Made by a program: the position numbers and the translations under genes. From contig DATIOK010000209.1 of assembly GCA_035473255.1 (NCBI GenBank), positions 1-60,353 of the forward strand: DNA of 60,353 nucleotides. The letters are read 5' to 3'. The notes under the pieces were generated by a model. The model ran no database searches. It was not told the origin of the DNA and saw only the letters and a program-made list of their open reading frames with translations. How positions within the stretch are numbered: the stretch's first letter is position 1; the number at the start of each line of letters is the position of its first letter. Positions 23,128 through 31,151 of this stretch are shown one piece after another. The DNA is from Gaiellales bacterium. Lineage in GTDB: Bacteria > Actinomycetota > Thermoleophilia > Gaiellales > JAICJC01.

Positions 23128-23913
23128 TCACGCGCTGCGACGGGCGATCAGCTCTGTCAGCTCCGCCAGCTGCGTGCGGTCACCGTCGATCGCGGCCAGC
23201 AGCTCGAGCACGCGCTCGTGCGACTCGTGGGCCATCTCGCGGGCCCGGTCTCGGCCCAGCAGCGTGACGTAGCTGGGCTCGCCGTCGCTGCCGTCGTCGA
23301 GCACGTCGTCGACGATCTGGAACAGCAGGCCCAGCTCCGCGGCGAACCTTCGGTACGGGCGCTGATCGTCTCGCGGCAGCCCGGCCACCCACAGGCCGCA
23401 GGCCACCGACGCCTCGATCAGCGCGCCGGTCTTGAGCCGGTGCAGCCGCGCCAGTTCGTCCTGGGTCGGCGCGGCCGCGGTCACGTCCAGGTACTGCCCG
23501 TCGATCATCGCAGCCACGCCGCCGGAGAGCTCCGCCAGCACCGCCAGCTTCACGTCGGCCGGCTCGGCCAGATGCCGGATGACATGGCTGTAGGCGGCAT
23601 TCAGCAGCGCGTCGCCGGCCAGCACCGCCACCGCCTCGCCGTAGCGAACGTGGCTGGCGGGGCGGCCCCGCCGCAGGTCGTCGTCGTCGAGCGCCGGCAG
23701 GTCGTCGTGGACGAGCGAGAAGGCGTGGATCATCTCCAGGGCGGCGGCGGCCGGCAGCGCCCGCTCCGGATCGCCGCCCGCGGCCGTGGTCGCGGCCAGG
23801 CACAGCCGCGGGCGCACGCGCTTGCCGGGCGACAGCAGCGAGTAGCGGACAGCGTCGTCCATGCCGTCGAACTCGGACTGGGCGGCCAGGCCTTCCAGGT
23901 ACGGCTCGATCAG
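23128..23913 (-). CDS. ispA: Polyprenyl (farnesyl/geranylgeranyl) diphosphate synthase
   Basis: YSLLSPGKRVRP, HAFSLVHDDLPALDDDDLRRGRP, LAGDALL, KTGALI, FQIVDDVLD. The frame is open upstream of ATG 23862 to a CTG at 23913 that overlaps the upstream TGA. Confidence 0.9.
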   Translation of the reverse strand: MIEPYLEGLAAQSEFDGMDDAVRYSLLSPGKRVRPRLCLAATTAAGGDPERALPAAAALEMIHAFSLVHDDLPALDDDDLRRGRPASHVRYGEAVAVLAGDALLNAAYSHVIRHLAEPADVKLAVLAELSGGVAAMIDGQYLDVTAAAPTQDELARLHRLKTGALIEASVACGLWVAGLPRDDQRPYRRFAAELGLLFQIVDDVLDDGSDGEPSYVTLLGRDRAREMAHESHERVLELLAAIDGDRTQLAELTELIARRSA

Positions 23914-24098
23914 GGCGAGGGCTCCGTCGTCTCGAGCCCCTCGGCACGGCGCTCGATCTCGTCCAGCGCCTGCTGAGCGAGCTGCGTGATCTGCTCGAGC
24001 AGGTCGGCCGTCTCAGCAGGGTCCAGCTGCTCGCCGTCCAGCCGCCCGCGCAGCTGCTCGATCTGGGTCGCCAACTCTGCAAGCACGTCGTCGCTCAG
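23910..24098 (-). CDS. Small helical protein resembling exodeoxyribonuclease VII small subunit (XseB-like)
   Basis: LAELATQIEQLRGRLDGEQLDPAETADLLEQITQLAQQALDEIERR; occupies the nusB-ispA slot. Start is CTG 24098 or GTG 24086. Confidence 0.6.
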   Translation of the reverse strand: MSDDVLAELATQIEQLRGRLDGEQLDPAETADLLEQITQLAQQALDEIERRAEGLETTEPSP

Positions 24099-24496
24099 GT
24101 TCCCACCCCCTCGGTGCGCGCGATCCGGCCCAGGATACCGTTCACGAGCGTGGCCGCCTCGGGCGAGGCGTAGCGCTTGGCCAGCGTCACGGCCTCGTCG
24201 ATCGCCACCGCGGCCGGCACATCGCCCTCGCTCATCTCCCACACCGCCAGCCGCAGGATGTTCCGCTCCAGCACGGCCATCCGCTCGCTCGTCCAGCCCT
24301 GCGCAGCCTCGTCGATGGCATGGTCGAGCCGCTCGCGGGATGCCCAGACACCCTCCGCACGCGTACGGGTGAACTCGCTGACGGGCTCGCCGGTGTCGCG
24401 CTGGTAGGACTCGTAGAGTGCCTCGAACGGCTCGTCCATGAGATCGTGCTGGTAGAGCAGGAAGGCCGCCGCCTTGCGCTCGCCGCGTCGGCTCAT
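24095..24496 (-). CDS. nusB: Transcription antitermination factor NusB
   Basis: ATG 24496: RRGERKAAAFLLYQ, WTSERMAVLERNILRLAVWE, VAIDEAVTLAKRY, VNGILGRI. Confidence 0.95.
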   Translation of the reverse strand: MSRRGERKAAAFLLYQHDLMDEPFEALYESYQRDTGEPVSEFTRTRAEGVWASRERLDHAIDEAAQGWTSERMAVLERNILRLAVWEMSEGDVPAAVAIDEAVTLAKRYASPEAATLVNGILGRIARTEGVGT

Positions 24497-24813
24497 CGCT
24501 CCACGCCCGTCACGGTGACGTCCACCGAGCGCACCGGCAGCCCGGTCATGCCGATCACGGCGGCAGCCACCTGCTCGCGCACGTCGGCGGCGGCCCGCCG
24601 CAACGGCACGCCGTAGGAGGCGGCCACGTCCACGTCGAAGGCGACACCCCGGGTGTCCAGCTCCCAGCTGACGGCACCCCGCCGGCCCGGCAGCACGCGC
24701 GACACGCGGCCGGGCTGATCGAGGCGCACGCCCTCCACCCGCCCCACGGCGCCACGCACGATCGAGACGAGCGCCTCGTCGGAGATGGTCGCGTTCGCAA
24801 GCTGCACGCTCAT
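24493..24813 (-). CDS. Asp23/Gls24 family envelope stress response protein
   Basis: ATG 24813; ISDEALVSIVRGAV, YGVPL...VREQVAAAVIGMTGLPVRSVDVTVTGV; accC-asp23-nusB context. Confidence 0.85.
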   Translation of the reverse strand: MSVQLANATISDEALVSIVRGAVGRVEGVRLDQPGRVSRVLPGRRGAVSWELDTRGVAFDVDVAASYGVPLRRAAADVREQVAAAVIGMTGLPVRSVDVTVTGVER

Positions 24814-26177
24814 GCCACCTGCTCCGCCAGCGACGGCAGCGCGCCCCGGGCATCGTCGAGGTAGGCGGTCGTGTAGCGACCGGAGCCGAAGCGGGGCTCG
24901 TCCAGGATCTCCAGGAACAGCTCGCGGGTGGTGGCGACGCCCTCGATCTCGAGCTCGCCCAGCGCTCGGCGGGCTCTCGCCATGGCCTGCTCGCGATCGC
25001 CGCCGTGGACGATCACCTTGGCCAGCAACGAGTCGTAGAACGGCGGCACCCGGTAGCCCTCGTAGGCATGGGTGTCGACGCGCACGCCGGCGCCGAGCGG
25101 CGGCCGGAAGCGGCTGACGGTGCCGGCCGCCGGCATGAACCCGCGGCGGGGATCCTCGCAGTTGATGCGAAACTCGATGGCGTGGCCGGCGAGCGGCGCC
25201 AGGCCGGTGGCCGGCAGGCGCTCCCCGCCCGCGATCCGCAGCTGCCAGACGGCGATGTCGATGCCGGTGAGCAGTTCCGACACGGGGTGCTCGACCTGCA
25301 GGCGGGTGTTCATCTCGATGAACGAGAACGCACCGTCGCGGTCGACCAGGAACTCGACGGTGCCGGCGTTGACGTAGTCGCAGGCGCTGCAGGCGCGGCC
25401 TGCGGCGTCTGCCATCGCGGCACGAGTGGCCTCGTCCAGCGCCGGGCTGGGGCCCTCCTCGATCAGCTTTTGGTGCCTGCGCTGCACCGAGCAGTCCCGC
25501 TCGCCCAGCACCAGCACGCCGCCCTCGCCGTCGGCCAGCACCTGCATCTCGACGTGGCGGGGCTCGACGATCGCCTTCTCGAGGTACATGCTGCCGTCGC
25601 CGAAGGCGCTCTCGGCCTCGGCCGACGCCATCCGGTAGGCCTCCTCGACCTGATCCGGCCCGGCGACCATTCGCATTCCGCGGCCACCGCCGCCGGCGGA
25701 CGCCTTCAGCAGCACCGGGTAGCCGACCTGGCCGGCCAGCTGCGCCGCCTCGTCGGCACCCGACAGCCGCTCCTGGCTGCCCGGCACCAGCGGCACGCCG
25801 GCGCCGGCCATGGTCTGCTTGGCGCGGCTCTTGTCGCCCATCAGCTCGATCGCCTCGGCCGGCGGGCCCACGAACACCAGGTCGTTGTCCTCGCAGGCGC
25901 GCACGAAGCCGGCGTTCTCGGCCAGGAACCCCCAGCCGGGATGGACGGCATCGCAGCCGGTGGTCTCGGCGGCCGCGATCAGGTTCGGCACCCGCAGGTA
26001 GCTGTCGGCGGGCGCGTGCGGCCCGATGCACACCGCGCGGTCGGCCAGGCCCACCCACAGCCCGTCGCTGTCGGCGGTCGAGTACACGGCCACCGCCTCC
26101 GCGCCGAGGTCGTGACAGGCCCGCACCAGACGCACCGCCGCCTCCCCGCGGTTCGCGATCAGGACGCGGCGGAGCAT
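24810..26177 (-). CDS. accC: Acetyl-CoA carboxylase, biotin carboxylase subunit
   Basis: VLIANRGEAA, HPGWGFLAEN, LKASAGGGGRGMR, ERDCSVQRRHQKLIEE, EMNTRLQVEHPVSE, FYDSLLAKVI. Confidence 0.96.
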   Translation of the reverse strand: MLRRVLIANRGEAAVRLVRACHDLGAEAVAVYSTADSDGLWVGLADRAVCIGPHAPADSYLRVPNLIAAAETTGCDAVHPGWGFLAENAGFVRACEDNDLVFVGPPAEAIELMGDKSRAKQTMAGAGVPLVPGSQERLSGADEAAQLAGQVGYPVLLKASAGGGGRGMRMVAGPDQVEEAYRMASAEAESAFGDGSMYLEKAIVEPRHVEMQVLADGEGGVLVLGERDCSVQRRHQKLIEEGPSPALDEATRAAMADAAGRACSACDYVNAGTVEFLVDRDGAFSFIEMNTRLQVEHPVSELLTGIDIAVWQLRIAGGERLPATGLAPLAGHAIEFRINCEDPRRGFMPAAGTVSRFRPPLGAGVRVDTHAYEGYRVPPFYDSLLAKVIVHGGDREQAMARARRALGELEIEGVATTRELFLEILDEPRFGSGRYTTAYLDDARGALPSLAEQVA

Positions 26178-26179
26178 GG

Positions 26180-26347
26180 GATGGTTGATTCCATGGGGTG
26201 CGTGGATGCTGGGCGCAGGATGGGGCGCGCTGGGCGTCGGGAGCGTCCGCAGGGCAGGCTGGATGATGCCCTGGCCAAGGACGATCGTGGCGTCCAGCGT
26301 GTCCCAGACCAGTCCGGCGCCGCGCAGTTCATGGAATCAACCATCTA
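26180..26347. repeat. MITE/REP-like element with 16-bp perfect terminal inverted repeats
   Basis: GATGGTTGATTCCATG (26180-26195) and its exact reverse complement CATGGAATCAACCATC (26330-26345), enclosing 134 nt; fills the accB-accC gap. Confidence 0.75.
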
Positions 26348-26348
26348 A

Positions 26349-28121
26349 CTAGACCAGTTCCAGCTCGAACAACGGCTGGCCGTACTCGACCGGCTCGGCA
26401 TTGCCGACCAGCACCGCACGGATCACGCCGGCGTGCTCGGACTTGAGCTCGTTGAACAGCTTCATGGCCTCCAGCACGCACAGCACCTGATCGACGGCGA
26501 CGGTGTCGCCCTCGCTGACGAACGGCTCGGCGGTCGGCGAGGGCGCGCGGTAGAACGTGCCCACCATCGGCGACGGCACCGTGACCGTCTGCGACACGCT
26601 CGGTGCGGCGGACTCCGCGGCGCCGTTGTCGGCTGGGGTGACGGCGGGGGCCGCCGCGACGGGAGCGAGCGGCCGTTCGTCCTGGCGGCGGACCGTGATC
26701 CGCACGCCCGCGTCCTCGACGGTGAGCTCGCCCACGTCAGAGCCCTCCACCATCTCGATCAGCTCGCGGATGCGCTCGGACTGGCTGCGCTCGAGGCCGT
26801 CGCGCTGAGCATCCTCGCGATCACCGCGGCCGCGCAGCGTGGCCAGCAGCCGGCTGGCGTCGTCGCCGAACAGCGCGATCAGCAGCAGATCCTCCTCGCT
26901 GGCGGCCAGCCCCTCGGCCCGCATCTGGTCGAGATCGGGTGAGGGATCGACGGCCGCGTTGGGGTCGGCGTGGGCGGCCGCCGCCGGCGCGATGGCCTGG
27001 GGTGGATTGCCGTAGATGCCCGACAGGTACTCGCGCATGTCGGGCGACACCTCGTCCCAGCGCCGGGCCGACAGCACGTGCCGCACGGCCTGGCCGGCCA
27101 GGATGCCGCCCACCGGCTGCGCCAGCGGCGGCACCCCGCAATCGAGGCGCACCTGCTTGAACTCCTCCAGCACCTCGTCCAGGCGGTCTGCGGCGCCCAG
27201 CATCCGCAGCCGCGCGTCCAGCTCGGAGACCAGCCCCACCGGCAGCCGGTTGAAGGCGGTGCGCAGCGTGATGCGGGGCGGGATCGGCAGCGCCGGCATC
27301 TGTGACGTGACGTGCTCGTCGATGAATCGCGACGCCTCCCAGACGCGGTCGGCATCGACCCCGTGTTCGAGCCCGAGCCCGGTCAGCGAGTCGCACAGCA
27401 CCTCCCCGGCCACCCGGTGCAGCGTGTAGGCGACCGGCAGCACGGCCGTGGCGATCGGCTCGGCGCCGTGACGGGCGGCCTCGATCGCCATCGCCAGCGC
27501 GTTTCCGCCGGTGCCCTGGCAGTAGAGGCCGACCGGCAGGCCGGACGCCTCCGCCAGCTCGTTGATGACGCGGTCGCACGTGCCCGGATCGAGCGCGCCG
27601 GCCGGGTCGTGCACCAGCACGTGGTCGGCACCCAGCTCCGCCAGCCGCCGCGCCTTGTCGACCACCCGCGGCAGGTTCGGCATGAAGCCGGAGAAGGCCA
27701 GGCCGGCGTACAGGCGGCCGCCCGCCTCGCGCACGGCCGCGGCGGCCGACTCGAGGTTCTCCACGTCGTTCAGGGGGTCGTGCAGCCGGAAGATCTCGAT
27801 GCCGCTCTCGGCCGCGCAGAGGATGAAGCGGCGCACAAGATCGTCGGACAGCGGCCGCGAGCCGACCAGGAACCGCCCGCGCAGTGCCATCTGCAGGGGC
27901 GTCGTGCGGCAGCGCGCCTTGACGCCGCGGATCCGCTCCCACGGGCTCTCGGTCCCCTTCTGGACGGCGGCGTCGAAGCAGCCGCCGCCGCTCACCTCGA
28001 GCGCGGCGAAGCCGGCCTGGTCGAGGATCTCGGCCACCTCCAGGACGCGCGCGGTGGAGATGGTGCCGACCAGCGGTTGCTGCGAGAGCAGGCGGATCGT
28101 GGTGTCGACGATGCGGGTCAC
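26349..28121 (-). CDS. accB: Fusion of a degenerate pyruvate-carboxylase/OadA carboxyltransferase domain and a biotin carboxyl carrier protein
   Basis: N-terminus DTTIR..LEVSGGGCFD..ESPWERIR..QMALRG..IFRLHDPLND follows PycB; C-terminus IRELIEMVEGSDVGEL, Ala/Pro linker, SPMVGTFYRAPSP, EAMKLFN (biotinyl-Lys). Confidence 0.9.
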   Translation of the reverse strand: MTRIVDTTIRLLSQQPLVGTISTARVLEVAEILDQAGFAALEVSGGGCFDAAVQKGTESPWERIRGVKARCRTTPLQMALRGRFLVGSRPLSDDLVRRFILCAAESGIEIFRLHDPLNDVENLESAAAAVREAGGRLYAGLAFSGFMPNLPRVVDKARRLAELGADHVLVHDPAGALDPGTCDRVINELAEASGLPVGLYCQGTGGNALAMAIEAARHGAEPIATAVLPVAYTLHRVAGEVLCDSLTGLGLEHGVDADRVWEASRFIDEHVTSQMPALPIPPRITLRTAFNRLPVGLVSELDARLRMLGAADRLDEVLEEFKQVRLDCGVPPLAQPVGGILAGQAVRHVLSARRWDEVSPDMREYLSGIYGNPPQAIAPAAAAHADPNAAVDPSPDLDQMRAEGLAASEEDLLLIALFGDDASRLLATLRGRGDREDAQRDGLERSQSERIRELIEMVEGSDVGELTVEDAGVRITVRRQDERPLAPVAAAPAVTPADNGAAESAAPSVSQTVTVPSPMVGTFYRAPSPTAEPFVSEGDTVAVDQVLCVLEAMKLFNELKSEHAGVIRAVLVGNAEPVEYGQPLFELELV

Positions 28122-28684
28122 GCGCGTGAGATGTACCGCGCCTCGCGGGTGTCCACCCGGATCACGTCACCGACGTTGACGAACAGGGGTACCGCGACGA
28201 CGGCGCCGGTCTCGAGCGTGGCCGGCTTGGTCACGTTGGAGACGGTGTCGCCCTTGACGCCCGGCTCGGTGTCGACCACCTTCAGCTCCACCGCCGCCGG
28301 CAGCTGGAGCGAGGTCGGCTTGCCGTCGACCGTGAGCAGCTGCACGGTGTCGTTCTCGCGCATGTACTGCAGTTCCTCGCGCATGGTGTCGGCCGGGAAC
28401 GCGAGCTGGTCGAAGGTCTCGGAGTTCATCAGGTGCACGTCGCTGCCGTCGTTGTAGAGGTAGGTGACGTTGACGACCTCGGTGTGGATGCGCGGCATCT
28501 TCTCGCCGGCCCGGAAGGTCTTGTCGACGACGCCGCCCGACTCCAGCGCCTTCAGCTTGGTGCGGACGAACGCGCCGCCCTTGCCGGGCTTGACGTGCTG
28601 GAAGTCGACGATCCGGTAGATGGTGCCGTCGACCTCGACGTGCATGCCGTTCTTGAACTGGTTCGTGGAGATGGTTTCAGCCAT
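28118..28684 (-). CDS. efp: Translation elongation factor P
   Basis: FQHVKPGKGGAFVRTKLK, KTFRAGEK, TEPGVKGDTVSNVTKPATLETG, VPLFVNVGD. Confidence 0.98.
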   Translation of the reverse strand: MAETISTNQFKNGMHVEVDGTIYRIVDFQHVKPGKGGAFVRTKLKALESGGVVDKTFRAGEKMPRIHTEVVNVTYLYNDGSDVHLMNSETFDQLAFPADTMREELQYMRENDTVQLLTVDGKPTSLQLPAAVELKVVDTEPGVKGDTVSNVTKPATLETGAVVAVPLFVNVGDVIRVDTREARYISRA

Positions 28685-28697
28685 GATGGTGAGGCCG

Positions 28698-29780
28698 TCA
28701 GCCGGCCGTGATCAACTCCTTAGGGTAGCCGGTGAGGCGCTCGCAGCCGTCCCCGGTGACCACCACGAGATCCTCGATGCGCACCCCGCCGACGCCCGGC
28801 AGGTAGACGCCCGGCTCCACTGTGACGACCATCCCCTGCTCGAGGGTTGCGGGGTAGGTGACGGAGAGGCGCGGATCCTCGTGAATCTGGAGGCCGACGC
28901 CGTGACCGGTGCCGTGCTGGAAGTGCTCGCCGTGGCCGGCCTCGGTGATGATGTCGCGCACGACCGCGTCGGCGTCCTTGCCGGTGACGCCGGGTCGCAC
29001 CGCGTCGAGTCCGGCCAGCTGGGCCCTGCGCACCAGCTCGTAGACCTCGCCCAGCGGGTCGGGGACGGGGCCCGTGGCGAGGGTGCGCGTGCAGTCGGAG
29101 TGGTACCCGTCGAGCACGGCGCCGATGTCGATCGTGACCAGGCTGCCGGGGGCGATCGGCTCGCGCCGTGGCTCGGCGTGCGGCAGCGCGCCGGCCGCGC
29201 CGGAGGCCACGATCGAGTCGAAGGCGATGCCGTCGCCGCCATGCTCGCGCACCAGCTGCTGGACACGCCAGGCCACGTCGAACTCCGTGCGGCCGGCAAG
29301 GCCCTCGCCCACCAGCTGCGCGTAGACCGGCTCGAGGATGGCCGCGGCGCCGCGGATGGCCTCGATCTCGTCATCGTCCTTGACGATCCGAAGGCCCTCG
29401 ACGGCGCCGGACACGCCCACCAGCTCGACGTCCCCGGACGCCTCCGCCAGCAGCGCGTGAGCGGCGTAGGACAGATGCACCGACTCGAAGCCGACCCTGG
29501 CTGCGCCGGGTGCGAGCTCGGACCAGCGGGTGGAGACGAAGCGGATCAGGTCCTGGTTCGCCTGCTGCACGTCGATGAACTCGCGCAGCGGCGAAACGCG
29601 CTCCAGATAGCGGAAGTCGGTCAGAAAGACGGAGCCGGACGGCGTTGCCACCACGGCGCCGTTGCTGCCGGTGTACCCGGTCAGGTAGCGGACGTTCGTG
29701 AGATCCGTGATCAGGAGGGCGTCGATCTCGTGGCCGGCCAGGCCGGCCGCCAGCCGTTCGACGCGCGCGCGATAGTTCAT
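28698..29780 (-). CDS. pepQ: Xaa-Pro peptidase, M24 family
   Basis: ATG 29780; NVRYLTGYTGS, TDFRY, FDSIVASG, GALPHA, DIGAVLDGYHSDCTRT, HGTGHGVGLQIHEDP, VEPGVY, VRIED. Confidence 0.92.
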   Translation of the reverse strand: MNYRARVERLAAGLAGHEIDALLITDLTNVRYLTGYTGSNGAVVATPSGSVFLTDFRYLERVSPLREFIDVQQANQDLIRFVSTRWSELAPGAARVGFESVHLSYAAHALLAEASGDVELVGVSGAVEGLRIVKDDDEIEAIRGAAAILEPVYAQLVGEGLAGRTEFDVAWRVQQLVREHGGDGIAFDSIVASGAAGALPHAEPRREPIAPGSLVTIDIGAVLDGYHSDCTRTLATGPVPDPLGEVYELVRRAQLAGLDAVRPGVTGKDADAVVRDIITEAGHGEHFQHGTGHGVGLQIHEDPRLSVTYPATLEQGMVVTVEPGVYLPGVGGVRIEDLVVVTGDGCERLTGYPKELITAG

Positions 29781-30208
29781 GAGGCGTTCTCCGCGAGGTA
29801 GGTGAAGGCGTCCCGGTAGCCCTCGGCGCCGCGCCCGCTGATGCGGTGCGAGACCACCTCCGCGATCACCGTGTGGCGCCGCCACAGCTCGCGGCGCTCG
29901 ATGTCGGACAGGTGCACCTCGACGATCGGGCCCGTGAAGATCTCGAGCGCATCGCGGATGGCGTAGCTGTAGTGGCTCCATGCGCCGGGGTTGACGACGA
30001 GCGCGTCGGTGCCGGAGCAGGCCTCGTGGATCATGTCCACGTACGCGCCCTCGTGGTTGGTCTGGGAGCAGCGGGCGGACATGTTCAGCTCCTGCGCCCA
30101 CTCGTAGATGCGGGTCTCCAGCTGCTGCAGCGTCATGTCGCCGTACTGCTCGGGGTCACGACGACCGAGCATGTTCAGGTTGACGCCGTTCAGGACCGTG
30201 ACCTGCAT
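29777..30208 (-). CDS. aroQ: Type II 3-dehydroquinate dehydratase
   Basis: ATG 30208; LNGVNLNMLGRRDPEQYG, QTNHEG, NPGAWSHYSYAIRDAL, EVHLSDI..RELWRRH. Confidence 0.95.
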   Translation of the reverse strand: MQVTVLNGVNLNMLGRRDPEQYGDMTLQQLETRIYEWAQELNMSARCSQTNHEGAYVDMIHEACSGTDALVVNPGAWSHYSYAIRDALEIFTGPIVEVHLSDIERRELWRRHTVIAEVVSHRISGRGAEGYRDAFTYLAENAS

Positions 30209-30359
30209 GGCCGCGAAGGGTACTGGAAGGCCCCGGCACCGTGTCTCGCGCGCACCGCACCCGTCGGAGGTGGTCTGTGACAGGTCCGGCACGGCTCGTG
30301 ACTGACAGCTGACGGGGACCGCATGCAGTCTGGGCGCCAACCCGACGAAAGGACTTCGA

Positions 30360-31151
30360 ATGCGATTCCGCACCCTGCTGGCCGTGATGGCCGCAGCCAT
30401 CGCCGTGGCGGCCGGCTCCGCCCACGCTAGGGCCGCCGAGATCAGCGTCTACAAGGTCTGGTTCCAGCGCAGCGGCAAGCTGTGGCTGGTGAAGCGGCAG
30501 CAGCCGCTGACGTCCGCCCCGGCCCGCGCCGCCATGCAGGCGCTGCTGGCCGGGCCGAACCTGTCCGAGTCGGACGCCGGCGTCGGCTCGCAGGTGCCGG
30601 CATCGGCCGACCTGCTCGGCCTCTCGGTCGCGAACGGCACGGCCACCGTCGATCTCAGCAGCGAGTTCGCGGCCTCGGGCACGACCGCCCAGGTGCGCAT
30701 GCGCCTCGCCCAGGTGACCTGGACGCTGGCGCAGTTCCCGACCATCGACCGGGTCGCCCTGCTGGTGAACGGACGGGCTGTGTCCAGCCTGGCCGGGGTG
30801 AAGTTGCCGAGGCCGATGACGCAGGACACCTTCGCGAGCCTGCTGCCATCGATCACCGTCTGGAACCCGGCCATCGGGACGGCGCTCTCCGGCAGCGTGC
30901 GGGTCAGCGGCAACGCCACCGTGTTCGAGGGCAGCCTGCACATCCGCATGCTCAACCACAACGGCACCACCATCGCGCACGCAAACACCATCGCCAGCTG
31001 CGGCACCGGCTGCCGCGGCGGATACACGATCCTGGTGCCGTTCTCGGTCGGCAGCGACCAGCTGGGAACGATCGTCGTGGCGGATGACGACACCGACGGC
31101 AACGGCAAGCCCCAGCATCAGGTGCGGGTGCCGGTGGTGCTGCTCTCGTAG
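30360..31151 (+). CDS. Secreted protein with GerMN and Gmad2 (Ig-like) domains
   Basis: Signal peptide (AHA-RAA), AAGGA RBS; LLAGP...TATVDLS.EF...RLAQVTWTLAQFPTIDRV (GerMN); VSGNATVFEG...SCGTGCRG (Gmad2-like). Confidence 0.82.
   Translation: MRFRTLLAVMAAAIAVAAGSAHARAAEISVYKVWFQRSGKLWLVKRQQPLTSAPARAAMQALLAGPNLSESDAGVGSQVPASADLLGLSVANGTATVDLSSEFAASGTTAQVRMRLAQVTWTLAQFPTIDRVALLVNGRAVSSLAGVKLPRPMTQDTFASLLPSITVWNPAIGTALSGSVRVSGNATVFEGSLHIRMLNHNGTTIAHANTIASCGTGCRGGYTILVPFSVGSDQLGTIVVADDDTDGNGKPQHQVRVPVVLLS

What the first reader, a model, noticed from the sequence alone, without database searches (positions are those of the whole stretch)
26349..28121. AccB fused to a catalytically dead pyruvate-carboxylase CT domain: candidate metabolite-sensing subunit of acetyl-CoA carboxylase
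Seen versus PycB/OadA consensus: RDAHQ becomes RLLSQ, KDMAG becomes HDPAG, HxH becomes YCQ, VTP(T/S)S becomes AQPVG, while the first Arg, the +4 Gln and the LRG Arg are kept. Established (R. etli PC numbering): Asp549, Lys718, His747 and His749 bind the metal, Thr882 transfers the proton, and Arg548, Gln552 and Arg621 bind pyruvate. So all metal and catalytic positions are lost and the substrate-binding ones retained. The C-terminal ~145 aa is a full AccB (with its own N-terminal IRELIE.VE.SD segment and EAMK), in the efp-accB-accC-asp23-nusB slot. Inference: a pseudoenzyme domain binding pyruvate, oxaloacetate or 2-oxoglutarate to regulate or scaffold ACC, with PII-like logic built into BCCP. 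The architecture may already exist in databases as long AccB or PycB annotations; I could not check.
Basis: partly seen in the sequence, partly recalled or inferred. Interest (0 to 1): 0.85.

Follow-up and report, generated by a model that had tools for sequence, protein, structure and literature searches.

The report
AccB carrying a dead carboxyltransferase domain
In this soil actinobacterium (order Gaiellales) the only biotin-carrier protein of acetyl-CoA carboxylase carries a 440-residue, well-folded and strongly conserved copy of the pyruvate-carboxylase transferase domain that has lost every metal-binding and catalytic residue; it descends from a fusion with intact catalytic motifs that sister lineages keep in the same gene slot.

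Summary
Window 26349-28121 (-) encodes a 590-aa protein made of a PycB/OadA/5S-type carboxyltransferase (CT) barrel (res 1-433) and a complete AccB (res 446-590, above the TIGR00531 cut-off). It lies in aroQ-pepP-efp-[X]-accC-asp23-nusB-ispA.

All four metal ligands and the catalytic Thr are replaced: D->L11, K->H171, H->Y200, H->Q202, T->Q335. R10, Q14 and R81 are kept.

It is the genome's only AccB-type carrier and only PC-type CT. accD-accA lie on another contig and no OadB is found.

The CT part is present in 35/35 sampled genomes of the order. It models confidently as a CT fold and is under purifying selection (barrel omega 0.17, against accC 0.23).

New context:
- Sister families of the same class hold a CT-AccB fusion with intact motifs in the same slot.
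- All degraded forms fall in one clade nested among the intact ones.
- A sister dead lineage has lost Q14 and R81, so two of the three pyruvate-binding residues are kept only in Gaiellales.

In Gaiellales the former active site is remodelled and then frozen.

Verdict: a real pseudoenzyme domain on the housekeeping BCCP. It is not described in the literature I could search, and databases name it either OadA or AccB. The role is most likely structural. A ligand-sensing role stays plausible but untested.

The parts
26349..28121 (-). Whole gene: pseudo-CT::AccB fusion, 590 aa, GTG start
27312..28121 (-). Res 1-270: HMGL-like TIM barrel with the metal site abolished (L11, H171, Y200, Q202) and R10, Q14, R81 kept
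   Evidence: omega 0.17
26823..27311 (-). Res 271-433: PYC_OADA helical subdomain. The catalytic Thr position is Q335 and the biotin-contact Ser position is G338
26787..26822 (-). Res 434-445: variable junction between the CT-like part and AccB, low pLDDT
26682..26786 (-). Res 446-480: AccB N-terminal segment (helix plus hairpin, IRELIEMVE...). It aligns to the N-terminal part of E. coli BCCP in the BC-BCCP complex 4HR7
26589..26681 (-). Res 481-511: Ala/Pro-rich flexible linker
   Evidence: pLDDT below 50; entropy 2.4
26352..26588 (-). Res 512-590: biotinyl domain. The EAMK biotin Lys554 codon is at 26460-26462
28118..28684 (-). efp. Its stop overlaps the fusion's start (translational coupling is likely)
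24810..26177 (-). accC (biotin carboxylase), 455 aa, without the Ala-rich C-terminal helix of two-subunit-PC alpha subunits
   Evidence: PMC5059739
24493..24813 (-). Asp23-family gene (YqhY/RfaA-like)
   Evidence: (abstract on B. subtilis RfaA)
24095..24496 (-). nusB
26178..26348 (.). 171-nt repeated element with terminal inverted repeats, inserted between the fusion gene and accC. It is not part of the protein but splits the operon here
   Evidence: relatives have gaps of 3-10 nt

Best explanation
[quoted passage not shown] Its partners are AccC next door and AccD/AccA on contig C196. Its C-terminal 145 residues are a complete, ordinary AccB: a BC-binding N-segment, a flexible linker and a biotinyl domain with EAMK.

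Its N-terminal 433 residues are a pseudoenzyme. They form a correctly folded pyruvate-carboxylase-type carboxyltransferase domain that has lost the metal site (Asp, carbamyl-Lys, His, His) and the proton-shuttling Thr, so it cannot transfer CO2 between biotin and pyruvate.

The domain was inherited from an ancestral CT-AccB fusion with intact catalytic residues, which still sits in the same efp-X-accC slot in sister families. In those families it is the only AccB and the only PC-type CT, so one BC/BCCP pair may serve both ACC and pyruvate carboxylation (inferred).

After catalysis was lost, the domain was kept under purifying selection for a non-catalytic job. The most likely job is structural: a dimerising CT core that pairs two carriers and organises the AccC-BCCP half of ACC, as CT dimers do in two-subunit PC.

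Shown: architecture, loss of catalytic residues, sole-AccB status, selection, descent from intact forms. Inferred: the structural mechanism.
For: Architecture and residue losses:
-.
- The fold is retained: AF2 pLDDT 85.7, TM 0.85 and rmsd 3.2 A to OadA CT 2NX9, top hit 5KS8 beta.

Genome inventory:
- The fusion is the only TIGR00531-passing AccB and the only PF02436 domain in the 90%-complete genome.
- accD-accA are present.
- No OadB.

Conservation:
- The CT part is in 35/35 genomes of the order and 168/201 of the class.
- dN/dS: barrel 0.17, whole CT 0.26, AccB part 0.29, accC 0.23, efp 0.21.

Descent from intact forms:
- Intact-motif fusions occupy the same slot in families f5, f6 and f8 and in Eggerthellales UBA948.
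- In those genomes the fusion is the only AccB and the only PC-type CT, and there is no PEPC.
- All dead forms make one clade (SH-aLRT 96) nested in the intact ones.
- Types A and B share the derived states P16, R83, P116, Q202, A334 and G338.
- Constraint on CT relative to AccB relaxes stepwise, intact < type A < type B, but omega stays below 1.
- Type B has lost Q14 and R81 yet keeps the domain, so the common function does not need the full pyruvate-binding triad.

Literature:
- CT dimers are the structural arms of two-subunit PC, and only the distal CT may be catalytically active (PMC5059739).
- A CT-PT-BCCP construct of R. etli PC is dimeric, and T882A alone abolishes activity (PMC5895798).
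Against: No direct evidence for dimerisation or for contact with AccC. I could not model complexes or inspect coordinates.

In the Gaiellales type the former active site is the most conserved part of the domain. Site entropy is 0.34 against 1.05 for the CT background, and 0 of 20,000 random sets were as low. R10, Q14, R81, D172 and the replacement residues L12, F84 and Q202 are invariant. That pattern is expected for a functional pocket rather than a mere scaffold.

This AccC lacks the C-terminal helix that tethers BC to PycB in 5KS8, so the assembly mode cannot be the same as in two-subunit PC.

The NG86 dN/dS values come from a 72% GC genome with partly saturated dS, so only the relative values are trustworthy.
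Confidence: 0.5

Rival explanations
1. Ligand sensor. The remodelled barrel still binds a small carboxylate (pyruvate, oxaloacetate, 2-oxoglutarate or another anion) through R10, Q14, R81 and the newly fixed R83. Ligand binding changes carrier mobility or ACC assembly, giving BCCP a built-in metabolic input.
For: R10, Q14 and R81 are invariant and R83 is in 35/37 of the non-redundant Gaiellales-type sequences. Former active-site positions are far more conserved than the rest of the CT part. 16 of the 17 lineage-fixed changes lie on the catalytic face, while 52 other conserved positions are unchanged from the intact enzymes, so the pocket was selectively re-engineered rather than left to decay. 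Arg548 and Gln552 bind pyruvate in R. etli PC (PMC10653868 citing Duangpan 2010 and Lietzan 2013).
Against: The sister dead lineage (type B) has lost Q14 and R81 but keeps the domain in the same slot. The replacements L11, L12, F84, P173 and Y200 are bulky and hydrophobic and may simply fill and stabilise a metal-free barrel. In PC the pyruvate carbonyl also coordinates the metal (my own knowledge), and the metal is absent here. There are no binding data.
Confidence: 0.28
2. Docking or parking site. The dead CT domain still receives the biotinyl domain in cis or in trans, as in the ancestral enzyme. It acts as a non-productive resting site that sequesters (carboxy)biotin-BCCP and so tunes flux to AccA/AccD.
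For: In PC-type enzymes BCCP docks on CT, including in cis in CT-BCCP dimers (PMC5895798; PMC5059739). The fold and much of the catalytic-face surface are conserved.
Against: The positions homologous to the biotin-contacting Thr882, Ser885 and Lys886 are changed. Two of them vary within the order: 335 is Q/A/S and 339 is G/Q/R/T. Position 338 is fixed as Gly. That argues against a conserved biotin pocket.
Confidence: 0.1
3. New or residual catalysis. The barrel has acquired a different active site (for example around H114, H171, Y200, C48) and catalyses another reaction.
For: H114 (35/37) and Y200 (36/37) are newly fixed polar or aromatic residues on the catalytic face.
Against: The known metal ligands and the catalytic Thr are all gone. 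H171 (H/N/L) and C48 (C/V/A) vary, which is unlike catalytic or metal ligands. CT constraint is relaxed relative to the intact forms.
Confidence: 0.05
4. Functionless relic that has simply not yet been deleted.
For: It derives from an active ancestor. Constraint is relaxed relative to the intact forms.
Against: It is full-length in 35/35 genomes of the order at 50-77% identity. Barrel omega of 0.17 is lower than for accC and efp. 70 CT positions are invariant across 37 non-redundant sequences. The only truncations or frameshifts are five copies from MFD MAGs, which I take to be nanopore assemblies.
Confidence: 0.04

Closest known systems
AccB / BCCP of heteromeric bacterial acetyl-CoA carboxylase (E. 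coli type; TIGR00531; PDB 4HR7 chain B, 1BDO)
   Same: Res 446-590 match the full model above cut-off, with an N-terminal BC-binding segment, a flexible linker and a biotinyl domain with EAMK. The gene sits directly upstream of accC in the conserved efp-accB-accC-asp23-nusB order. It is the only such protein in the genome.
   Different: It carries 440 extra N-terminal residues forming a PC-type CT fold. No characterised AccB has this.
PycB, beta subunit of two-subunit pyruvate carboxylase (Methylobacillus flagellatus, PDB 5KS8; PMC5059739)
   Same: Best sequence and structure match. The domain order is the same (CT then carrier), and it pairs with a separate BC subunit encoded next door.
   Different: - All metal ligands and the catalytic Thr are lost.
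- The score is below the PRK09282 cut-off.
- There is no BT-like beta-sheet between CT and carrier, and AccC has no Ala-rich C-terminal helix.
- The carrier is a full AccB rather than a bare biotinyl domain.
OadA (Vibrio cholerae, 2NX9) and transcarboxylase 5S (1RQB)
   Same: Same CT fold (TM 0.80-0.85). JGI annotates the family as OadA.
   Different: Far below the model cut-offs. No OadB in the genome or in the order. The active site is abolished.
Uncharacterised CT-AccB fusions with intact motifs (families f5, f6, f8 of the same class; Eggerthellales UBA948; Syntrophomonadaceae; Bacteroidales and Fibrobacteres, where they lie next to accA)
   Same: Same architecture and AccB-type carrier (EAMKL[FM]NE). 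In the class they occupy the same gene slot. They are the phylogenetic parents of the dead clade.
   Different: They keep RDxHQS, LRGQN, KDMAG, HxH and VTP, so they are presumably active. None has been studied experimentally as far as I could find.
Non-catalytic parts and regulators of ACC: plant BADC pseudo-BCCPs and PII binding to BCCP (PMC12706156, PMC5080355)
   Same: They are precedents for catalytically dead paralogues, and for metabolite-responsive proteins, acting on the BCCP/BC half of ACC.
   Different: Those are separate proteins from other families. Here the dead module is a CT-fold domain fused covalently to the functional carrier.

Membership tests
AccB / BCCP (TIGR00531) | Score above the curated equivalog cut-off over the full model | tested here: met
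   135 bits against 115.2, model positions 5-155 of 156 on res 450-588; 137.5 bits in the genome scan
AccB / BCCP (TIGR00531) | Biotinyl-lysine motif (E)AMK in a biotinyl domain | tested here: met
   EAMK 551-554; PF00364 at 74.9 bits
AccB / BCCP (TIGR00531) | N-terminal segment that binds biotin carboxylase | tested here: inconclusive
   Res 449-587 align to 4HR7_B 24-175, and the model shows a helix plus hairpin at 445-478. Binding itself cannot be tested here.
AccB / BCCP (TIGR00531) | Encoded with accC, and the ACC carboxyltransferase genes accA/accD are present | tested here: met
   accC is directly downstream. accD and accA are on C196, with accA at 343 bits against a cut-off of 319.
AccB / BCCP (TIGR00531) | Actually biotinylated and carries CO2 from AccC to AccAD | not testable with these tools
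   Needs biochemistry
PycB / PC carboxyltransferase domain | CT fold (TIM barrel plus helical PYC_OADA subdomain) | tested here: met
   Foldseek: 5KS8 E 5e-40; 2NX9 TM 0.85, rmsd 3.2 A; Pfam PF00682 and PF02436
PycB / PC carboxyltransferase domain | Metal ligands Asp, carbamylated Lys, His-x-His | tested here: not met
   L11, H171, Y200 and Q202 in alignments to 5KS8, 2NX9 and 1RQB. The state is stable across 37 orthologues.
PycB / PC carboxyltransferase domain | Catalytic Thr of the VTP motif (Thr882 in R. etli PC, essential: PMC5895798) | tested here: not met
   Q335; Q/A/S across orthologues
PycB / PC carboxyltransferase domain | Pyruvate-binding Arg, Gln, Arg | tested here: met
   R10, Q14 and R81 are invariant in type A. 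Q14 and R81 are lost in sister type B.
PycB / PC carboxyltransferase domain | NCBIfam PRK09282 cut-off | tested here: not met
   354.6 against 402 bits
OadA (oxaloacetate decarboxylase Na+ pump alpha) | TIGR01108 cut-off | tested here: not met
   307 against 756.5 bits
OadA (oxaloacetate decarboxylase Na+ pump alpha) | Membrane partner OadB in the genome | tested here: not met
   PF03977 is absent from G000 and from 5 other genomes of the order. The positive controls rang.
Transcarboxylase 5S subunit | NF008984 cut-off and an intact metal site | tested here: not met
   195.5 against 827 bits; metal ligands lost

The most novel reading that the evidence does not exclude
CT-AccB fusions are an undescribed class of hub carriers for biotin-dependent carboxylation. 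In the form with intact motifs, one BC/BCCP pair would feed both acetyl-CoA carboxylase and a cis pyruvate carboxyltransferase. Where the gene lies next to accA, it might even allow ATP-free oxaloacetate:acetyl-CoA transcarboxylation. In Gaiellales the barrel would have been rebuilt into a metal-free ligand-binding site (R10, Q14, R81, R83, D172 with L12, F84, H114, Y200, Q202) that makes the housekeeping BCCP itself a metabolite-responsive regulator of fatty-acid synthesis.
Probability: 0.22. Interest if true: 0.85.

Novelty: new variant of a known kind. Interest (0 to 1): 0.62.

Why it matters
Heteromeric ACC is textbook biochemistry, and its carrier is thought of as a small stand-alone protein. 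Here, and across a whole order of abundant soil actinobacteria, the only carrier is welded to a large pseudoenzyme that is conserved as tightly as essential neighbours.

That has several consequences:
- It implies an ACC architecture or regulation that has not been described.
- It gives a clean natural series for studying how a catalytic domain becomes a non-catalytic one: intact, then remodelled and dead, then degenerate and dead, all in the same slot.
- It points to intact CT-AccB fusions that may couple pyruvate and acetyl-CoA carboxylation through one carrier.
- It exposes a systematic mis-annotation. 'Oxaloacetate decarboxylase alpha' or 'PycB' calls would wrongly credit these genomes with anaplerotic or Na+-pump functions in metabolic reconstructions.

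Tried and rejected
- **Assembly or frameshift artefact.** Rejected. More than 100 independent 583-596-aa variants exist, and the start is conserved.
- **Genuine PycB or OadA.** Rejected by the model cut-offs, the lost catalytic residues, the absence of OadB, and the fusion being the only PC-type CT in the genome.
- **A second standalone AccB that would make the fusion redundant.** Not found in G000 or in most relatives. G003 and G005 are exceptions.
- **Independent inactivation in types A and B.** The tree and six shared derived residues favour one event. Long-branch attraction cannot be excluded for types C and D.
- **Loss of CT activity explained by gain of PEPC or single-chain PC.** The correlation is only partial: PEPC in 2 of 9 dead-lineage genomes and single-chain PC in some f4 genomes. 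The window's own family has neither.
- **Literature.** Five full-text searches found no paper on this architecture. The Thermoleophilia marker paper mentions only an AccC indel. PMC2864305 could not be read.
- **Pocket geometry.** I could not obtain model coordinates, so pocket volume, electrostatics and dimer-interface conservation were not analysed.
- A first Pfam call on the small ORFs used a wrong frame (protein 4), and one search failed on coordinates. Both were redone.
Full report
**1. What is there**

Window 26349-28121 (-) is a single ORF of 590 codons with a GTG start. The start overlaps the stop of efp (28118-28684) by 4 nt.

Pfam finds three domains:
- HMGL-like, res 3-267
- PYC_OADA, res 292-434
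- Biotin_lipoyl, res 514-587

NCBIfam splits the protein cleanly. The C-terminal 140 residues pass the AccB equivalog TIGR00531 (135 bits against a cut-off of 115.2, model positions 5-155 of 156). Every PycB, OadA, 5S or PC model falls below its cut-off (PRK09282 354.6 against 402; oadA 307 against 756.5).

| Canonical motif | In this protein | Change |
|---|---|---|
| RDxHQS | R10-L11-L12-S13-Q14 | metal-binding Asp lost |
| LRGQN | L80-R81-G82-R83-F84 | Arg kept |
| KDMAG | H171-D172-P173-A-G | carbamyl-Lys lost |
| HxH | Y200-C-Q202 | both His lost |
| VTPTS | A334-Q335-P336-V-G338 | catalytic Thr and biotin-contact Ser lost |

Thr882 is catalytically essential in R. etli PC (PMC5895798). 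Arg548 and Gln552 bind pyruvate (PMC10653868 citing Duangpan 2010 and Lietzan 2013). The assignment of the four metal ligands and of Arg621 rests on my own knowledge of the PC structures.

**2. Context in the window and genome**

Pfam confirms the gene order aroQ - pepP(M24) - efp - [fusion] - accC - asp23 - nusB - 62-aa ORF - ispA.

The genome (3.23 Mb, 90% complete; the window is contig C209) holds these carboxylase parts:
- Seven biotinyl/lipoyl domains in all. Only three carry an AMK biotin motif: this protein and two BC-BCCP fusions (C110, beside a PccB-type CT, and C15). The rest are lipoyl E2-type.
- Only this protein passes TIGR00531.
- An accD (with Zn ribbon) and accA pair lies on C196.
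- PF02436 occurs nowhere else in the genome.
- There is no OadB and no PF00311 PEP carboxylase.

The long protein is therefore the only candidate carrier for AccC/AccAD. It cannot be part of an OAD pump or of a second PC.

**3. Is the CT-like part real and constrained?**

- AlphaFold2 on a 31-sequence alignment gives mean pLDDT 85.7, mostly above 90 for res 1-430. The low-confidence parts are the 434-445 junction and the 481-509 linker.
- Foldseek puts 5KS8 beta first. The CT part superposes on OadA and 5S with TM 0.80-0.85 and rmsd of about 3 A.
- The CT part is present in 35/35 sampled genomes of the window's order (50-77% identity) and in 168/201 of its class.
- More than 100 full-length variants at 70% identity or more occur in metagenomes. 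JGI names them 'oxaloacetate decarboxylase alpha' and NCBI names them 'acetyl-CoA carboxylase BCCP'.

Pairwise NG86 dN/dS over seven orthologues:

| Region or gene | Median omega |
|---|---|
| Barrel, res 1-270 | 0.17 |
| Whole CT part | 0.26 |
| AccB part | 0.29 |
| accC | 0.23 |
| efp | 0.21 |

**4. Where it came from**

Aligning full-length relatives from species genomes and from a 1.84-billion-protein representative library shows that CT::AccB fusions with an AccB-type EAMKL[FM]NE carrier are widespread. They come in several states:

- **Intact.** These keep RDxHQS, LRGQN, KDMAG, HxH and VTP. They occur in families f5, f6 and f8 of the window's own class and in 'Eggerthellales UBA948', in the same aroQ-efp-X-accC slot. 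They also occur in a Syntrophomonadaceae MAG, and in Bacteroidales and Fibrobacteres, where the gene lies directly next to accA.
- **Type A.** The window's order, with RLLSQ, LRGRF, HDP, YxQ and [QAS]P.
- **Type B.** Family f4, Miltoncostaeaceae-like, with RDLA, no LRG, SDG and QVQ. It is in the same slot, and PF02436 is barely detectable.
- **Types C and D.** Two further degraded forms of unknown taxonomy.

In the intact-lineage genomes the fusion is again the only AccB and the only PC-type CT, and PEPC is absent. One BC/BCCP pair may therefore serve both ACC and pyruvate carboxylation there. That is an inference.

A quick IQ-TREE (LG+C20) puts all degraded forms in one clade (SH-aLRT 96) nested among the intact class members, with A+B at 97. 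One inactivation event suffices, although the dead clades sit on long stems. Independently of the tree, types A and B share six derived residues: P16, R83, P116, Q202, A334 and G338.

Relative constraint relaxes stepwise, while omega stays below 1 everywhere:

| Lineage | dN(CT) / dN(AccB) |
|---|---|
| Intact | 0.19-0.76 |
| Type A | 0.65-1.0 |
| Type B | 0.83-1.54 |

**5. What the dead domain does**

The domain is kept by selection, and the known chemistry is impossible for it. Two observations pull in different directions.

(a) The shared property of all dead lineages is retention of a full-size CT fold on the sole AccB. Type B has lost Q14 and R81, two of the three pyruvate-binding residues. 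The function inherited from the common dead ancestor therefore cannot depend on the full triad. CT domains are obligate dimers that form the structural arms of two-subunit PC, and in that enzyme only the distal CT may be catalytically active (PMC5059739). A CT-PT-BCCP construct of R. etli PC is dimeric (PMC5895798). This favours a structural, assembly role that became entrenched.

(b) Within type A the former active site is not decaying.
- The 17 active-site-homologous positions have mean entropy 0.34 against 1.05 for the CT background. None of 20,000 random sets was as low.
- R10, L12, Q14, R81, F84, D172, Q202 and P336 are invariant. Position 335 (the Thr equivalent) and position 339 vary.
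- 16 of the 17 residues that are fixed differently in type A and in intact forms lie at the C-terminal ends of the barrel strands or in the VTPxS loop.
- 52 other conserved positions are unchanged.

This is a re-engineered, frozen pocket.

My odds are about 0.5 for a structural role, 0.28 for ligand sensing, 0.1 for a non-productive docking site for the biotinyl domain, and 0.05 or less each for new catalysis and for a functionless relic.

AccC here lacks the Ala-rich C-terminal helix, and the fusion lacks the BT-like sheet used in 5KS8. BC is therefore presumably held through the AccB N-segment, as in E. coli 4HR7 (inference).

**6. Comparison with what is known**

It works like an AccB, and it meets every AccB criterion that can be tested here. 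It is not a member of PycB, OadA or 5S in the functional sense: the fold is met, but the metal site, the catalytic Thr, the model cut-offs and the OadB partner are not.

Five full-text searches found no paper on a CT::AccB fusion, dead or intact. Precedents for non-catalytic modulators of the BC/BCCP half of ACC are plant BADC proteins and PII (listed). A precedent for regulation by the neighbouring Asp23 protein exists in B. subtilis (RfaA/YqhY).

Earlier AI notes of this scan on orthologues in other genomes reach the same reading. I treat them as agreement, not as independent evidence.

**7. Verdict**

The pseudoenzyme-on-AccB reading is well supported. The metabolite-sensor mechanism is possible but unproven, and it is weakened by the sister lineage.

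Novelty: a new variant of a known kind, namely BCCP with a fused, selected pseudo-carboxyltransferase and with intact parents that are themselves uncharacterised.

Interest: 0.62.

Noticed in passing
window 26178-26348: The 171-nt spacer between the fusion gene and accC is a repeated element with about 16-bp terminal inverted repeats (GATGGTTGATTCCATG...CATGGAATCAACCATC). It folds at -82 kcal/mol. About 20 copies at 76-92% identity lie on other contigs of the genome. Most orthologous loci have only 3-10 nt here (L096 has 123 nt), so it looks like a recent MITE-like insertion inside the accB-accC operon.
   Followed up: partly
L104, L105 (f8), L102, L103 (f5), L106, L107 (f6), L025; L027, L028, L031: CT-AccB fusions with intact motifs are the only AccB and the only PC-type CT in their genomes. 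In Bacteroidales and Fibrobacteres MAGs they lie directly next to accA. They are candidates for one carrier serving both ACC and pyruvate carboxylation, or for ATP-free oxaloacetate:acetyl-CoA transcarboxylation. I found no publication on them.
   Followed up: partly
L114 (accB-accC-CT), L115, L116 (accB-CT), L113: A third kind of PC-type CT occurs as a separate 447-494-aa gene, with motifs TTRDGNQSL, ITTGMRF, YLKDPG, ELHSHCT and VTPVS. The metal ligands and Thr are intact, but the LRG Arg and the RDxH His are replaced. It lies in operons with its own small AccB (and accC). This suggests a three-subunit carboxylase for a substrate other than pyruvate. Some Gaiellales genomes carry it as a second system.
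   Followed up: no
P0155, P0158, P0160, P0172, P0188; P0203, P0205, P0212, P0214: Two further degraded CT-AccB types of unknown taxonomy. Type C has RS.., LKTA and DxD. Type D has RDIFQ, GARNL and IKDxE. Both cluster with the Thermoleophilia dead clade in the tree.
   Followed up: partly
window 23128-30400: The gene order aroQ-pepP-efp-accB-accC-asp23-nusB-(62 aa)-ispA matches, from my memory, the yqhS-yqhT-efp...accB-accC-yqhY-nusB...ispA region of Bacillus subtilis. The Asp23 homologue YqhY/RfaA is reported there to control AccC (bioRxiv 10.1101/2024.02.19.580884, abstract seen).
   Followed up: partly
whole genome G000 (also G172, G079): No PF00311 PEP carboxylase and no functional PC-type CT were found in the window's family. 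The anaplerotic route of these organisms is unclear.
   Followed up: no
L022, L023, L029, L034, L036: The fusion gene (and accC in L029 and L036) appears frameshifted in several 'MFD' MAGs. These are most likely long-read homopolymer errors in 70% GC DNA rather than pseudogenes.
   Followed up: no
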